The notes below the pieces were generated by a model. The model ran no database searches. It saw only the letters and a program-made list of their open reading frames with translations, and was not told the origin of the DNA. Positions 198-53,245 of a stretch of 64,000 bases of DNA are shown piece after piece. The stretch spans positions 75,764,001-75,828,000 of the forward strand of contig OX597822.1 in assembly GCA_951406725.2 (NCBI GenBank), given 5' to 3'. The stretch's first letter is position 1. Every line of letters starts with the position of its first letter. The stretch is from Octopus vulgaris. Taxonomy: Eukaryota. The translations under genes and the position numbers were made by a program.

Positions 198-454
198 TCA
201 TACGGCTCAAACACACATGCATATATCACATACATCTCTTCTTGTTTGCCTGTTATAGTGTTTATTTCATGAATGTTTATATAAACAAGCATTAAAACAT
301 ACACACACAGGCATGTGTAATGTTTATCACTGACTTCCGAGAAATATACGATGACTATTTTGGCATTTCATGTGTTAATTTTTGTGCAGCTCAGTCTATA
401 CTCTACATTCATATTATACATATATATTTGTTTGTATGGGTGTGTGTATGCGTA

Positions 455-703
455 TAAATGCTGTAGTCTTTCCCCACAACTTACTCTCACACTTTCTTCC
501 TGTTTCTGTTGTACCTGAATTTCAAAGGGCCAGCCTTGTCATACTCCGTGTTACGATGAATCCCCCCCCCCCAAGAACTACGTTAAGGGTACATGTGACT
601 GTGGAATTCTCAGCCACTTGCACGTTAATTTCACGTTGATAGGATCAAGTTGCGTTGATCGGATCAAGTGGAACTGCCGTCCTCGTAACCGACGGAGTAC
701 CAC
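455..703 (+). mobile_element. SINE family C (tRNA-Arg-like head family), 5'-truncated
   Basis: Body and tail match full copies at 30153 and 63108 (tttcaaagggccagccttgtcac...ctacgttaagggtac...ccgacggagt). Confidence 0.85.
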
Positions 704-856
704 GATGTATTGTAACGTTGAGGTCCCGTGTCCAGCAAAGACGGTAACAGAATATATCTTGCATAAGGTTACACATGAGAAGAAGTGCAAAATAACTGTT
801 ATTGCTGTTTTCCTGCATAAGTTTTGAATATATGTTATGTGACACTAAATAGAAAC

Positions 857-1010
857 GATTCCGCCGAAGTCGAATTTGCTTTTCATCCTTCCGGGGTCGA
901 TAAATTAAGTACCAGTTACGCACTGGGTCGATGTAATCGACTTAATCCCTTTGTCTGTCCTTGTTTGTCCTCTCTGTGTTTAGCACCTTGTGGGCAATAA
1001 AAATATAAGA
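857..1010 (+). mobile_element. SINE family B (Meta-domain-like), 5'-truncated
   Basis: gcttttcatccttccggggtcgataaattaagtaccag core and tail shared with the 22221 copy. Confidence 0.85.
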
Positions 1011-6868: not shown

Positions 6869-7027
6869 TTGTGTGTCTGTGTTTGTCCCCCACCACCATC
6901 GCTTGACAACCGTTGCTTGTGTGTTTATGTCCCCGTAACATAACGGTTCGGCAAAAGTGATCGATAGAATAAGTAAAGGCGGTGTTCCAGTATGGCCGCA
7001 GTCAAATGACTGAAACAAGTAAAAGAA
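6626..7027 (+). mobile_element. SINE family A (tRNA head, CORE-like segment, internal (TA)n(TG)n)
   Basis: ggtgcaggagtggctg head, ccttggacaaatgtcttctac CORE-like segment, tail gcagtcaaatgactgaaacaagtaaaag. Confidence 0.85.
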
Positions 7028-7273
7028 CATATATATATGTGTGTGTGTGTATGTGTGTACGTACGTATGTATGTATACACGTTTTTATCCAAAACGGAGG
7101 CGTACACCATTCCTCCATGTGATCAGCTTGAAAAATTGTTAAGGTATTAAGATATTTTTCTTAACATGAAACTAATGGTAGCCTTCACACACAAATAAGG
7201 AAATGTTATCCACCAATGCAGTGTGGAGCACTCATTTTCATCGATCGATATTTACGTATATATGTGCACACAT

Positions 7274-7322
<49 letters not shown>

Positions 7323-7434
7323 TACACACACACACACACACATATATGTATATGAAGATGAAGATAATAAGGGTAGAAAATTAAGAGAAATATTCTACCG
7401 GTGGCCAGAATGCGTAATAAAGTCAATAGACAAC

Positions 7435-7965
7435 ATATATTTCATACAAATTCGTGTATCTTTTTATACACAAAAGTGGTGACTTTAGCAGGACACCTTA
7501 CATGCTAAAGAGGACAGTTAAAACCCAAACTACGAATAAGAGAAATTTCAAAGGGAATGAAAAATAAAAACATTTCAATGGTTATCCTTATACTTGAGTT
7601 TCAACATCGATGTACAAATATAATAAGTTGCCATCCGTGCTTCTTCAGTAAGGGCACTAAAATTAGTTTATATTAATGCAACCCTGAAGACACACCTATA
7701 CAATATGATTTTTCATATCCACCGGCCAAGTGCAGCTACAATCGGCAGCAAATAATAATACGGATTAAAACTGCGCACCAAAGTTCTTCAAAATTACAGA
7801 GTATAAGGGTAACTATTGAAATGATTTGTTTTAATTATTTTTTCATTCCCTTTGAAATTATTTATTCGTGGTTTGGGCTTTAAATGCCCTTTCCAGCATG
7901 TAAGGTGTTCTGTTAAAATCAACTCTTTTGTATATAAAAATGTACCCTAATTTATATGAAATATA
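7435..7965. mobile_element. Fold-back element with about 165-bp inverted arms and an internal hammerhead (Penelope-like terminus)
   Basis: Arm 7435-7595 is the reverse complement of 7801-7965; part of the arm recurs at 25955-26040. Confidence 0.7.
7586..7653 (-). ncRNA. Minimal type I hammerhead ribozyme
   Basis: Minus strand: cctta-CTGAAGA-agcacggatg...catcgatgtt-GAAA-ctcaag-TA-taagg; stem I cctta/taagg; GUA cleavage triplet. Confidence 0.7.
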
Positions 7966-7985
7966 TATATATGTATATGTATGTT

Positions 7986-8048
<63 letters not shown>

Positions 8049-8100
8049 CATAAATATACATACATATATATATATATTTATTTATTTTAGTGATAACAAA

Positions 8101-8529: not shown

Positions 8530-8752
8530 GTATGTATATAGTTGTGTGTTTGTTTGTCCCCCCTCCACCATCGATTGGCAACATGTTCGTGAGTTTATGA
8601 CCCTGTAACTTAGCAGTTCGGCAAAAGAGGCCGATAGAATAATTACCAGGCTTACAAAGAACAAGTGCAGGGGTCGATTTCTTCGAATAAAAAGAGGGTC
8701 CTCCAGCATGGCAACAGTCAAAATGACTGAAACAAGTTAAAGAATAAAAGAA
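8530..8752 (+). mobile_element. SINE family A, 3' half
   Basis: gtttgtccccc...ttagcagttcggcaaaagag...gactgaaacaag. Confidence 0.8.
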
Positions 8753-18409: not shown

Positions 18410-18662
18410 ACGCAGGTGTGGCTTGCTTACCAACAGAATGGTTCCGGGTTCAGTCCCACTGCATGGCATCTTGTAATGTCTTCTACTAGTAGTGTCTTCT
18501 ACTATAGCTTCGCGCCGATCAAAGCTTTGTGAGTGGTTTTGGTAGACGGAAACTGAACGAACCTTGTCGTACATGTGTGTGTATGTGTGTATTTGTATCT
18601 GTGTTTGTCACCCTACCATCGTTTGACAATTGATGTTGGTGTGTTTAGGTCCCTGTAACTGT
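18410..18662 (+). mobile_element. SINE family A, 3'-truncated
   Basis: ggttccgggttcagtcccactgc...gtagacggaaactgaa. Confidence 0.8.
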
Positions 18663-18715
18663 TCAGGCGAATATACTGGCATTGATGTAGCAGCATTTGA
18701 AATATTGTCCAGGTA

Positions 18716-18790
18716 AAGCTAGCTGAAGAAGACTAATCAAATTTACCATAACAAGCATATTTGAAAAGTCCGAAACCTAGGTACTAGGTT
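18716..18790 (+). ncRNA. Minimal type I hammerhead ribozyme with intact core
   Basis: ctag-CTGAAGA-agactaatcaaat...atttgaaaagtcc-GAAA-cctagg-TA-ctag; palindromic stem III acctaggt. Confidence 0.78.
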
Positions 18791-18963
18791 ATCTAATTCT
18801 GGGTTGTGAATTTATCTAATGTTCTTCCTAGATGTAAGACGAAACTTTTTTTATGTTCGCTGCCTTCACATGTCTTGCCAATATATACACAGTGAAGCTT
18901 TACTATAGCGTCGTAAATTTATCGACTGGTATTTCCAGTAAACATTGGTGTCTTGTTACACCA

Positions 18964-19025
<62 letters not shown>

Positions 19026-27709: not shown

Positions 27710-27804
27710 ATACATATACATATGAGTGCATATACTCACACTCCTATACATATAAAAATATACATATACATAATAATGTAAATAAATGATATAAATTAGT
27801 AAAC

Positions 27805-27883
27805 ATATATATGTTCCACATTCAATGTTTCAGTTTTTCAACTTAGTTGAAAAACTGAAACATTGAATGTAGAACATATATAT
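27805..27883. repeat. Near-perfect palindrome made of two hammerhead 3' halves
   Basis: Each arm reads agttgaaaaact-GAAA-cattgaatg-T(A/G)-gaac; axis at 27844. Confidence 0.8.
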
Positions 27884-29662: not shown

Positions 29663-29882
29663 CATATATATATGTGTGAGCGTGTGTGCAAATACATGTA
29701 TTTATATATGCATATATAAATACATATATATACTACATATATGTACCTATTTATATGTGTATATGTGTGTAGATACACACGCACACACACACATATATGT
29801 GTGTATATATATACCGAAGTAAGCACATAAATGTGAAAAAAGATGGGAAAAAATGAGCACTCATATAGTAGAGGTAGAGTAA

Positions 29883-30017
29883 TATACTTTATTAAAAGCA
29901 GCAGAAATATCACAATAAACTATTACTTAGAGTAACAAAACTGTCCGACGAACGGTAACGTGAAACTCTGAGTAACAAATGTTGTGATATTTTATTCTGC
30001 TTTTAATAAAGTGTATA
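29883..30017. mobile_element. Fold-back element with a central hammerhead (29941-29977, +)
   Basis: tgt-CCGACGA-acg gtaa cgt-GAAA-ctctgag-TA-aca; arms tatactttattaaaagcag.../...ctgcttttaataaagtgtata. Confidence 0.72.
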
Positions 30018-30019
30018 TA

Positions 30020-30131
30020 TATCACGTGATCGACCAGGCCATCAGATGTTGCTACACATCGCTGGTCACAATGCGCTTCGCATTATTTTAGCTTTCAATG
30101 ACGCCACCCCGCTGGCTAAGCGAGCAGGCCA
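30020..30131 (-). mobile_element. Isolated alternative SINE-C 3' module
   Basis: Reverse complement of 3031-3150. Confidence 0.8.
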
Positions 30132-35042: not shown

Positions 35043-35095
<53 letters not shown>

Positions 35096-35097
<2 letters not shown>

Positions 35098-35254
35098 CCT
35101 TACATGGAATTTATAAACATTTAATGCATCGCTACACGCGTTTCCACAAATCATATATCCCTAAAGATCACAGTCCGTATACCTGAAATGATTACAGTGC
35201 AGTCCATTGTATCCGTAGCGATGCATTAAATGTTTATAAATTCCATCCAAGGAT
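35096..35254. repeat. Fold-back element; left arm starts at GAAACGCGT (hammerhead stem III remnant, minus strand)
   Basis: atcct..tggaatttataaacatttaatgcatcgctac / gtagcgatgcattaaatgtttataaattccatccaaggat. Confidence 0.75.
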
Positions 35255-35405
35255 CACTTTTATCATTATATTCATTATTGTATTTACCCTACATTACTGT
35301 TTCACCAGTCAGCATCATTAGACTGTGGCCGGCATAATAGAACAGGCGCTTTATTTGCATATTCAAAACGTTTCCCGTAAACAAATTTAAATTAAATATA
35401 TATAA

Positions 35406-52959: not shown

Positions 52960-53245
52960 CACGCCTATTTGTGTCTTTGTGCCGATGTTTCTCTCAACCA
53001 CCAGTACTTGACAAGAATTGTTGGATTGTTTACGTTCTCGTAACTTATCCTTTCGGCAAACGAAATAGAATAATTATATTGCTTCGGCCATGCATATACT
53101 AAAATCAAAACGATACAGGGAATGTTATCATGGTCCCGGCACATGGATAACACTCAAATTCGTGAAGCATTCTATTACTTTTTTAAGGTGGTGCCCGGTA
53201 CGGACACAGTCTAGTGACTGAAACAAGTAAAAGAAGATAAAAAGA
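52960..53245 (+). mobile_element. SINE family A 3' part, degraded and interrupted
   Basis: gtttacgttctcgtaactta...gtgactgaaacaagtaaaag. Confidence 0.6.

What the first reader, a model, noticed from the sequence alone, without database searches (positions are those of the whole stretch)
7435..7965. Ribozyme-centred fold-back element: both inverted arms begin at the hammerhead cleavage site
Seen: inverted arms of about 165 bp point outward. The left arm starts with a complete minus-strand hammerhead (...GAAActcaagTAtaagg). The right arm starts at the equivalent gagTAtaagg, with a decayed ctgaaga at 7684. Inference: two ribozyme-processed RNAs, or a template switch at the cleavage site, were integrated head-to-head. 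The same geometry recurs at 27805, 29883 and 35096 with unrelated sequences, which points to a general insertion mechanism of ribozyme-bearing elements rather than chance.
Basis: partly seen in the sequence, partly recalled or inferred. Interest (0 to 1): 0.76.

Follow-up and report, generated by a model that had tools for sequence, protein, structure and literature searches.

The report
Head-to-head Penelope-like retroelement insertion
This is an ordinary head-to-head double copy of a small, ribozyme-motif-carrying jumping element of the Penelope type, likely laid down in one integration event, and the joint lying next to the ribozyme's predicted cutting site is most likely incidental.

Summary
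The inverted arms are real (7435-7594 / 7799-7966, about 80-83% alike), and a type-I hammerhead motif lies on the minus strand (7585-7654). It was found by hand; Rfam finds none. The element is not centred on the ribozyme.

Other copies of the family in the same 2.8-Gb genome align to the minus strand from 7798 through the hammerhead to about 7352. The "spacer" is therefore the 5' half of a full unit of about 450 nt. The right arm is an inverted, 5'-truncated copy butted against that unit's 5' end, and it starts 5 nt upstream of the cleavage-equivalent site.

Of 94 family loci, 32 have such a head-to-head joint, 14 a partial tandem and 1 a tail-to-tail pair. Only 2 of 64 inner arm ends lie within 2 nt of the cleavage site. 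A diffuse 2-3-fold excess of 5' ends lies beside the ribozyme (unit positions 199-223).

This is the published insertion architecture of Penelope-like elements. The genome holds thousands of GIY-YIG candidates with intact 781-aa frames.

The three "recurrences" (27805, 29883, 35096) are TIR or fold-back repeats with no hammerhead core.

Verdict: new member of a known kind, low interest.

The parts
7352..7798 (-). Full-length unit of the repeat family. Unit coordinate q = 7800 - position + 1, so this is q3 to about q449. It has no long ORF and carries the hammerhead motif in its middle.
   Evidence: BLAST and nhmmer of family copies against this strand (-[3-454]). The 5' end is sharp at q3-5 in 28 of 30 starts. 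The distal 3' terminus ...TTCAT matches the family's.
7585..7654 (-). Type-I hammerhead-like motif. Helix I is CCCTTA/TAAGG. The core is CTGAAGA ... GAAA. Helix II is a long 39-nt arm. Helix III is 2 bp with a 4-nt loop, which is the palindrome ACUCGAGU in most family copies. Predicted cleavage lies between 7591 and 7590.
   Evidence: Motif scan. In a 21-copy alignment the CUGANGA core is intact in 18 of 21 and GAAA in 19 of 21. 89.7% of cells pair, against 25-45% in slid controls, with no significant covariation. No Rfam match. The window's copy folds weakly (z -0.53), while two other copies give z -3.6 and -4.9.
7799..7966 (+). Inverted, 5'-truncated copy of the same unit (q206 to q366-368). 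It ends at the family's proximal 3' terminus.
   Evidence: +[206-368]. Its first bases, GAGTA|TAAGGG, include 5 nt upstream of the cleavage-equivalent site.
7797..7799 (.). Head-to-head joint: q4 of the left unit (7797), one unassigned base (7798), q206 of the right copy (7799).
   Evidence: Read from the sequence and compared with family copies. Bridged by contigs of runs X1 and X2.
7352..7434 (-). Optional 3' extension of ~80 nt between the family's two alternative 3' termini (q360-369 and q440-459). The left copy has it and the right copy lacks it. It is the likely counterpart of the PLE 'tail'.
   Evidence: Histogram of 3' ends: 61 HSPs end at q360-369 and 51 at q440-459. Flanks. The 'tail' lying between two RT start sites is from Frangieh 2024 (section 3).
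7342..7354 (+). Left copy of a candidate target-site duplication, ATATATGTAT(ATG). The last 3 nt are shared with the element's end.
   Evidence: Exact 13-mer at 7342-7354 and 7967-7979, abutting both outer ends. It is low-complexity sequence: 10 matches in the window.
7967..7979 (+). Right copy of the candidate target-site duplication.
7259..7351 (.). (CA)n / TA-rich microsatellite flanking the left outer end; part of the presumed target.
7967..8075 (.). (TA)n microsatellite flanking the right outer end; part of the presumed target.

Best explanation
The block at 7352-7966 is a composite insertion of a non-coding, hammerhead-motif-bearing retroelement family: one full-length unit on the minus strand (7798 to 7352), abutted at its 5' end by an inverted, 5'-truncated copy (7799 to 7966). 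It was likely made in a single integration event by a Penelope-like reverse transcriptase/endonuclease that primed cDNA synthesis on both strands of a cut microsatellite target.

SHOWN.
- The two copies, their orientation and their extents.
- The family's sharp 5' end and its two sharp 3' ends, each followed by microsatellite.
- Head-to-head joints and partial tandems are common in the family.
- The genome is full of GIY-YIG/RT elements with intact frames.

INFERRED.
- Each arm is a cDNA started at one of two internal start sites on the RNA: the distal site for the left copy and the proximal site for the right.
- The left cDNA ran to the RNA's 5' end, and the right one stopped inside helix III of the ribozyme.
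- The two were then joined with one filler base.
- The template RNA was not cut by the ribozyme, and the nearness of the joint to the cleavage site is incidental.
- At most, the joint reflects a tendency of reverse transcription to stop beside the folded ribozyme.

The copies are old (about 80-88% alike to other copies) and have no evident present function.
For: - Other copies align across the 'spacer' to 7798.
- Family size, as first-look candidates (lower bounds, not copy numbers): 975 for q136-366, 1910 for the 3' part and 241 for the 5' part. This points to strong 5' truncation, as in target-primed reverse transcription.
- Of 94 loci, 32 are head-to-head, 14 are partial tandems (...q443 + ~11-nt linker + q4...) and 1 is tail-to-tail. 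In the sample selected only by q281-366, the figures are 20, 9 and 1 of 65.
- Inner ends of the arms vary from q3 to q391.
- The 5' terminus is sharp: 28 of 30 starts at q3-5. There are two 3' termini, q360-369 (61 HSPs) and q440-459 (51), both followed by (TA)n, (TG)n or similar.
- A 10-13-bp direct repeat abuts both outer ends of the composite.
- PF01541 (GIY-YIG) gives 6136 candidates and 148 scored matches, many in 781-aa open frames. Seven of 8 sampled ORFs are 90-99% identical.
- Only 1 of 94 family loci has a PLE ORF within the ~1.5-kb flanks held for each locus, so the unit is non-autonomous.
- Frangieh 2024 (main text): a purified PLE protein cleaves and extends both DNA strands and starts reverse transcription at two internal sites that delimit the tail. 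Ribozyme mutants do not change insertion, and no reads end at the ribozyme site.
Against: - No autonomous partner was found. The unit shares no sequence with 30 GIY-YIG loci, apart from an unrelated retrozyme-like copy in L034. Among 8 full PLE loci it matches only L068, in a divergent retrozyme-like copy (7079-7470) about 1.9 kb from that PLE's ORF. My strict scan found no hammerhead in those 8 loci.
- The two arms are not each other's closest relatives. In 20 pairs the partner was closest for both arms in 0 and for at least one arm in 2. The window's arms are 83% alike, against medians of 81% and 83% to other copies. A single event is therefore not shown by sequence. The test has little power in an old, star-like family.
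- The candidate TSD is low-complexity sequence that occurs 10 times in the window.
- 5' ends are 2-3-fold enriched at q199-223 beside the ribozyme (15 of 71, P about 0.001, interval chosen after seeing the data). The ribozyme region is therefore not wholly irrelevant to where copies end.
- Near-symmetric joints are over-represented (7 of 32 against 2.7 expected, P=0.012). A snap-back or template-switch route explains this more simply than two independent primings do.
- The hammerhead itself rests on a manual motif call with no Rfam support.
Confidence: 0.72

Rival explanations
1. The architecture is the same, but the inverted arm was made by template switching or snap-back. The reverse transcriptase, having finished or abandoned the first cDNA, would jump to a second template or fold back and copy in the opposite sense. 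The two target strands would not each prime their own cDNA.
For: Near-symmetric joints are enriched: |a-b|<=12 in 7 of 32 pairs against 2.7 expected, P=0.012. Examples are 222|220, 216|225, 220|212 and 243|233. Most joints have 0-3 nt of filler or a small overlap.
Against: In the window the joint is highly asymmetric (q3 | q206). In symmetric pairs the two arms often end at different 3' termini, for example 222..442 | 220..362, which a simple fold-back copy would not give. A PLE protein extends both strands in vitro (Frangieh 2024).
Confidence: 0.18
2. The hammerhead cuts the RNA, and the cleaved 5' end (or a template switch exactly there) defines the inner ends of both arms, so ribozyme processing drives the head-to-head geometry.
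For: The right arm starts 5 nt from the cleavage-equivalent site. A diffuse excess of 5' ends lies at q199-223: 15 of 71 in the unbiased set, and 13 of 64 inner arm ends at q199-225.
Against: The left copy runs through the ribozyme to q3. The right arm retains GAGTA upstream of the site, which a cleaved RNA would lack. No inspected copy begins exactly at TAAGGG. Ends at q209-213 number 2 of 71, against 1.3 expected. The excess is spread over about 25 nt on both sides of the site, whereas the genuine run-off end at q3-5 is sharp. The excess is also seen in plain truncated copies (8 of 51 in the merged set). In vitro, ribozyme cleavage is dispensable for PLE insertion (Frangieh 2024).
Confidence: 0.06
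3. Two independent insertions of the same family landed next to each other by chance or by target preference, for example both drawn to the same microsatellite.
For: The arms are no more alike than random family pairs. The family prefers microsatellite targets.
Against: About a third of loci have a head-to-head partner within 120 bp, in a genome where first-look candidates number about 2000 in 2.8 Gb. The orientation bias is 32 head-to-head against 1 tail-to-tail. Joints are tight, with 0-3 nt gaps in most. A direct repeat flanks the whole composite.
Confidence: 0.03
4. The arms are terminal inverted repeats of a DNA transposon or MITE, or an assembly artefact.
For: The inverted-repeat geometry alone.
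Against: 53 of 94 loci are single copies without a partner. Inner ends vary, and outer ends are the retroelement's own 3' termini. Independent contigs from two runs bridge the joint.
Confidence: 0.01

Closest known systems
Insertion architecture of endonuclease-bearing Penelope-like elements (pLTR partial tandems, adjacent inverted 5'-truncated copy, optional 'tail'); Craig et al. 2021 (PMC8557442), Frangieh et al. 2024 (PMC11167929)
   Same: Heavy 5' truncation. Partial tandems in 14 of 94 loci. An inverted 5'-truncated copy directly at the 5' end in 32 of 94. Two alternative 3' ends. Insertion into microsatellites. A hammerhead motif in the repeated part.
   Different: The unit of about 450 nt has no RT/GIY-YIG ORF and forms its own short tandem. 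The stretch between the two 3' termini is about 80 nt rather than 30-40 bp. No sequence link to any sampled PLE of this genome was found.
Metazoan non-LTR retrozymes (Cervera and de la Pena 2020, PMC7229834; Li et al. 2026 preprint, 10.64898/2026.07.22.740005)
   Same: A small (150-450 bp), AT-rich, non-coding repeat with one type-I hammerhead per unit. Helix III is 2 bp capped by a palindromic loop. It co-occurs with PLEs.
   Different: Copies here are mostly dispersed and 5'-truncated, or 1.x-unit partial tandems, not long arrays. Helix II is unusually long (39 nt). Circular or linear RNAs could not be tested, as no RNA run was listed.
Twin-priming inversions of human L1
   Same: Both strands of the target break serve as primers, giving a head-to-head inverted structure in one event.
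   Different: In L1 twin priming, the inverted and direct pieces are different, adjoining parts of one RNA. Here both arms carry the same 3' part, each with its own 3' terminus.
MITEs and fold-back DNA transposons (such as the elements at 27805 and 35096 in this window)
   Same: The inverted-repeat appearance.
   Different: In those families the inverted repeat has fixed ends and is part of every copy. Here the inverted partner is optional, with a variable inner end.

Membership tests
Penelope-like element insertion unit | Partial tandem copies forming pseudo-LTRs | tested here: met
   14 of 94 loci show ...q>=330 joined to q<=30 on one strand, through a conserved linker of about 11 nt.
Penelope-like element insertion unit | Inverted 5'-truncated copy immediately adjacent to the 5' end | tested here: met
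   32 of 94 loci, including the window, against 1 tail-to-tail pair. The feature is as described by Craig 2021.
Penelope-like element insertion unit | Optional tail, i.e. two alternative 3' ends | tested here: met
   3' ends pile up at q360-369 (61) and q440-459 (51). The spacing is about 80 nt, against 30-40 bp in the literature.
Penelope-like element insertion unit | ORF with a telomerase-like RT and GIY-YIG endonuclease within the element | tested here: not met
   The unit has no such ORF. tblastn of 8 PLE ORFs hits only 1 of 94 family loci, and not contiguously. The element is therefore filed as non-autonomous, not as a PLE proper.
Penelope-like element insertion unit | Sequence link to an autonomous PLE of the same genome (shared pLTR or 3' end) | tested here: not met
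   No unit homology in the PLEs of 30 GIY-YIG loci or 8 full PLE loci, beyond unrelated retrozyme-like copies in L034 and L068. This is a small sample of at least 6136 candidates.
Hammerhead ribozyme, type I | Conserved core CUGANGA ... GAAA ... cleavage-site H, with helices I, II and III in type-I order | tested here: met
   Window 7585-7654 on the minus strand. The core is intact in 18 of 21 (CUGANGA) and 19 of 21 (GAAA) copies. 89.7% of cells pair, against 25-45% in slid controls.
Hammerhead ribozyme, type I | Match to a curated covariance model (the Rfam hammerhead families) | tested here: not met
   No hammerhead hit at gathering score, nor at E<=10 in 7400-8000, nor in L015 1480-1620. 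The 39-nt helix II is a likely reason (inference).
Hammerhead ribozyme, type I | Covariation supporting the helices | tested here: inconclusive
   Two pairs change on both sides (helix II). This is not above the shuffles: 366 of 500 reach the observed value.
Hammerhead ribozyme, type I | Self-cleavage | not testable with these tools
   Needs in vitro transcription of monomer and dimer constructs. No RNA run was listed.
Metazoan non-LTR retrozyme | Tandem repeats of a 150-450 bp unit, each with a type-I hammerhead | tested here: inconclusive
   The unit is about 452 nt with one motif. Only partial tandems of up to about 2 units were seen in the sampled loci. No long arrays were seen.
Metazoan non-LTR retrozyme | Expression as linear and circular RNAs of unit length | not testable with these tools
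   No RNA holder listed.
MITE / TIR DNA transposon | Fixed terminal inverted repeats in all copies | tested here: not met
   53 of 94 loci are single-arm, and inner ends vary from q3 to q391.

The most novel reading that the evidence does not exclude
The folded hammerhead, not its cleavage, shapes how these elements land. The compact ribozyme would act as a roadblock for the Penelope-type reverse transcriptase. Growing cDNAs would therefore stop preferentially in a zone of about 25 nt at the ribozyme's 3' edge (q199-223). These stalled ends would seed both plain 5' truncations and head-to-head joints such as the one in this window.
Probability: 0.25. Interest if true: 0.45.

Novelty: new member of a known kind. 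Interest (0 to 1): 0.22.

Why it matters
The finding itself is an ordinary, decayed insertion with the published tandem/inverted architecture of Penelope-like elements. It does not reveal a new, ribozyme-driven insertion mechanism.

Its modest value lies at the family level.
- One genome supplies about a hundred sampled loci of a short, easily aligned, hammerhead-bearing non-autonomous element.
- These loci show a sharp full-length 5' end, two discrete 3' ends about 80 nt apart, and no pile-up of ends at the predicted cleavage site.
- This agrees, from genomic fossils, with the in vitro results that PLE reverse transcription starts at two internal sites and uses uncleaved RNA (Frangieh 2024).

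The diffuse excess of ends beside the ribozyme and the excess of near-symmetric joints are small, testable leads on how the inverted copies arise. Craig 2021 names that question as open.

Tried and rejected
- Rfam at gathering score and at E<=10 gave no hammerhead match. In one search only the best 150 of 571 rows were visible, most of them microsatellite look-alikes of miRNA families.
- Covariation test of the hammerhead helices was not above the shuffles.
- Search for the autonomous partner. The unit was compared with 30 GIY-YIG loci and 8 full PLE loci, and 8 PLE ORFs with all family loci. No link was found. The single nearby ORF fragment (C10:1099...) is not contiguous with the unit. L034 and L068 hold divergent relatives of the unit, not a PLE link.
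- Arm-to-arm identity as a test of single-event origin was inconclusive: the partner was closest for both arms in 0 of 20 pairs.
- RNA evidence: no RNA holder was listed, so expression, in vivo cleavage and circles could not be examined.
- In the laid contigs, parts without cover at the microsatellites (7286-7353, 7932 onward) say nothing.
- My first sample of loci was biased for 5'-end statistics, because one query began at q211. I therefore drew a second sample using only q281-366 and give its statistics separately.
- An alternative parse, in which the shared TAAGGGTA / TACCCTTA words (direct repeat 7362-7375 / 7798-7811) mediated the joint by microhomology, was rejected. It would require about 20 nt of linker that is absent.
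- The earlier-notes index held nothing for this genome or this sequence.
- Structure prediction, complex prediction and the protein searches were not used, because the element is non-coding.

Full report
OBSERVATION

The window is G000:C9:75764001-75828000 of a 2.8-Gb genome in 227 contigs. It is rich in microsatellites and holds a U6 snRNA gene.

The inverted arms exist. 7435-7539 pairs with 7862-7966: 105 nt, 83% complementary without gaps. With gaps the homology reaches 7594 on the left and 7799-7800 on the right.

On the minus strand, 7654 to 7585 reads CCCTTA-CTGAAGA-(39 nt)-GAAA-C-TCAA-G-TA|TAAGG. This is a type-I hammerhead layout, with predicted cleavage between 7591 and 7590. The call is manual. 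Rfam gives no hammerhead at gathering score, at E<=10 within 7400-8000, or in the best-folding family copy.

Contigs of two public runs span the joint (7549-7916 and 7550-7891, with 9 and 7 differences). The structure is therefore not an artefact of this assembly.

WHAT THE ARMS BELONG TO

A search of the window's own genome with 7435-7665 (minus strand) found a large family: 975 first-look candidates, 40 of them scored, 79-88% identical.

Aligning the minus strand of 7345-7800 to 30 such loci changed the picture. I number the unit q = 7800 - position + 1.
- Many copies match from q3-6 to q366-370, or on to q441-456. Examples are L002 q3-370, L012 q4-368, L003 q4-424 and L011 q20-456.
- The left copy is a full unit of about 450 nt (7798 to about 7352) with the hammerhead motif in its middle (q~147-216, predicted cleavage q210|211).
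- The right arm (7799-7966) is q206-368 of a second copy, in inverted orientation, butted against the 5' end of the first with one unassigned base between.
- It begins GAGTA|TAAGGG, 5 nt upstream of the cleavage-equivalent position.
- The 'decayed ctgaaga' at 7684 lies in the 5' half of the left unit, read on the other strand. At least one other copy shows the same words, and it has no hammerhead context.

FAMILY ANATOMY

I gathered loci with six own-genome searches. One of my early queries happened to start at q211. I therefore drew a second sample with queries covering only q281-366 (65 loci) and report it separately.

Coordinates come from a profile built on the window unit's columns.
- The 3' part is far commoner than the 5' part: 1910 against 241 first-look candidates. 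These are lower bounds, not copy numbers.
- Full-length copies start sharply: 28 of 30 starts <=10 are at q3-5.
- There are two discrete 3' termini, q360-369 (61 HSPs) and q440-459 (51). Both are followed by (TA)n, (TG)n, (GTAT)n or (TTA)n.
- Where a partial copy precedes a full one...q443 is joined to q4 through a conserved linker of about 11 nt.
- Of 94 loci, 53 are single copies, 14 have such a partial tandem, 32 have a head-to-head joint within 120 bp, and 1 has a tail-to-tail pair. In the second sample the figures are 39, 9, 20 and 1 of 65.

IS THE JOINT TIED TO THE RIBOZYME?

At nucleotide resolution it is not.
- The 64 inner ends of the 32 head-to-head pairs range from q3 to q391. Two lie at q209-213 and five at q206-216.
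- In the second sample, 2 of 71 truncated 5' ends (q11-290) lie at q209-213, against 1.3 expected (P=0.36).
- Of the copies with ends between q190 and q235 that I inspected by eye, none begins exactly at TAAGGG.
- The genuine run-off end at q3-5 is sharp. Cleaved RNA serving as template would be expected to leave an equally sharp peak at q211, and there is none.

At coarse resolution there is a diffuse excess.
- 15 of 71 ends lie at q199-223, against 6.3 expected (P about 0.001, with the interval chosen after seeing the data).
- It appears both in arms at inverted joints (10 of 45 in the merged set) and in plain truncated copies (8 of 51).
- By eye the ends cluster at q214-223, just 3' of helix I, with a few at q199-207 inside helix III. 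The window's q206 is one of these.

I read this as a possible tendency of reverse transcription to stop at the folded ribozyme. That is an inference and was not tested. Two well-preserved copies fold compactly (z -3.6 and -4.9), while the window's own copy does not (z -0.53).

THE HAMMERHEAD MOTIF IN THE FAMILY

In 21 copies the CUGANGA core is intact in 18 and GAAA in 19. Helix III plus loop is the palindrome ACUCGAGU in most.

The proposed helices pair in 89.7% of cells, against 25-45% when the partner is slid. Covariation is no better than in shuffles.

A 2-bp helix III capped by a small palindromic loop is the form described for metazoan type-I hammerheads, which are thought to act as dimers (Cervera and de la Pena 2014, passages; 2020, passages). 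The 39-nt helix II is unusual.

WHO MOVES IT

The unit has no long ORF.

The genome holds at least 6136 first-look GIY-YIG candidates, with 148 scored matches over the Pfam cut-off, many in 781-aa open frames. Seven of 8 sampled full ORFs are 90-99% identical to each other.

No sequence link between the unit and these elements was found. Only 1 of 94 family loci has a PLE ORF fragment within the ~1.5-kb flanks held, and it is not contiguous with the unit. The unit is therefore non-autonomous, and its partner is not identified.

COMPARISON WITH WHAT IS KNOWN

Craig et al. 2021 (passages read) describe PLE insertions as highly 5'-truncated and often in partial tandems. [quoted passage not shown] They also describe a 30-40-bp tail, and a microsatellite bias in some clades.

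Frangieh et al. 2024 (main text read) report the following for a purified PLE protein.
- It cleaves and extends both target strands.
- It starts reverse transcription at two internal RNA sites that delimit the tail.
- It does not need ribozyme cleavage.
- No RNA-seq reads end at the ribozyme site.

Li et al. [quoted passage not shown]

The family here fits all of this. Its two 3' termini are the likely counterpart of the two start sites, although about 80 nt apart. Its head-to-head joints are the known inverted copy.

MECHANISM

I commit to the following for this locus.
1. Inferred: a PLE enzyme cut a compound (CA)n(TA)n microsatellite.
2. Inferred: each 3'-OH primed a cDNA on unit RNA. The left one started at the distal site and ran to the RNA's 5' end (q3). 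The right one started at the proximal site and stopped at q206.
3. Inferred: the two cDNAs were joined with one filler base.
4. Shown, though weak because the sequence is low-complexity: a 10-13-bp direct repeat, ATATATGTAT(ATG), abuts both outer ends.

The main rival for the second arm is template switching or snap-back. The excess of near-symmetric joints favours it (7 of 32 against 2.7 expected, P=0.012), but it does not fit this asymmetric joint well.

Sequence cannot show that the two arms share one event. Partner arms are not each other's nearest relatives (0 of 20 pairs for both arms), as expected in an old, star-like family. The case for one event rests on the frequency of partners and on the 32:1 orientation bias.

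THE THREE 'RECURRENCES'

- 27805-27881 is two 39-nt arms back to back. The arm is 100% identical at 40 or more other places, as for the terminal repeat of a young DNA transposon.
- 29883 lies in a repeat of about 213 nt (at least 2061 candidates) whose internal fold-back is present in the other copies too.
- 35096 is a short member of a TIR family (at least 1481 candidates).

None holds a CUGANGA core on either strand. They do not share the geometry or the mechanism.

VERDICT

This is a new member of a known kind.

Earlier AI notes on other genomes reach the same reading for similar structures. I count them as agreement, not as evidence.

Noticed in passing
window 18717-18789 (+), element about 18660-18965: A second hammerhead-like motif (CTGAAGA ... 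GAAA, helix III palindrome ACCTAGGT) belongs to a different element. It ends in ...CACTGTATATA(TA)n with no inverted partner, and appears to be inserted into a SINE-like repeat.
   Followed up: partly
window 27805-27881: A near-perfect 76-nt hairpin made of two 39-nt arms. One arm plus its flank (27795-27845) is 100% identical at 40 or more other loci. It looks like a terminal-repeat-only remnant of a very young DNA transposon.
   Followed up: partly
window 29810-30022: Member of a repeat family of about 213 nt (at least 2061 first-look candidates) with a built-in fold-back of about 130 nt. The same family lies just downstream of the unit in locus L017.
   Followed up: partly
window 35095-35255: Short TIR element (arms of about 40-55 nt) of a family with at least 1481 candidates. 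Most other copies share only query positions 1-127 and so seem longer.
   Followed up: partly
window 53076-53181 (+): U6 spliceosomal RNA gene (Rfam 56.3 bits against a gathering score of 44).
   Followed up: no
window 6887-6975 and 8559-8645: Two direct copies (81-88%) of a SINE-like repeat (CCCCCACCACCATCG...GGTTCGGCAAAAG) that carries microsatellites. They bracket the composite insertion at a distance of about 1.67 kb. A third copy at 18608-18660 is interrupted by the second hammerhead element.
   Followed up: no
G000 genome-wide; L061-L068: Very abundant Penelope-like elements: at least 6136 GIY-YIG candidates, many with intact 781-aa frames 90-99% identical to each other. Four of the 8 sampled loci have a further open frame of 338-386 aa just upstream on the same strand.
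   Followed up: partly
L034 about 480-1000 (-) and L068 7079-7470: Divergent sister families of the unit (64-77% identity) with the same layout: 3' part, tandem joint, hammerhead with ACUCGAGU. L068 also shows a head-to-head joint.
   Followed up: partly
G000:C14:67620840-67621342 and contig C28: Three hits to the 3' part spaced about 200-217 bp apart on C14 could be a short tandem array. Ten hits across the three 3'-region searches lie on contig C28, perhaps through segmental duplication.
   Followed up: no
32 head-to-head family loci: Near-symmetric joints, with both arms truncated at almost the same unit position, are more frequent than in permuted pairings (7 of 32 against 2.7, P=0.012). 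This hints at a snap-back or shared-template route for a subset of the inverted copies.
   Followed up: partly
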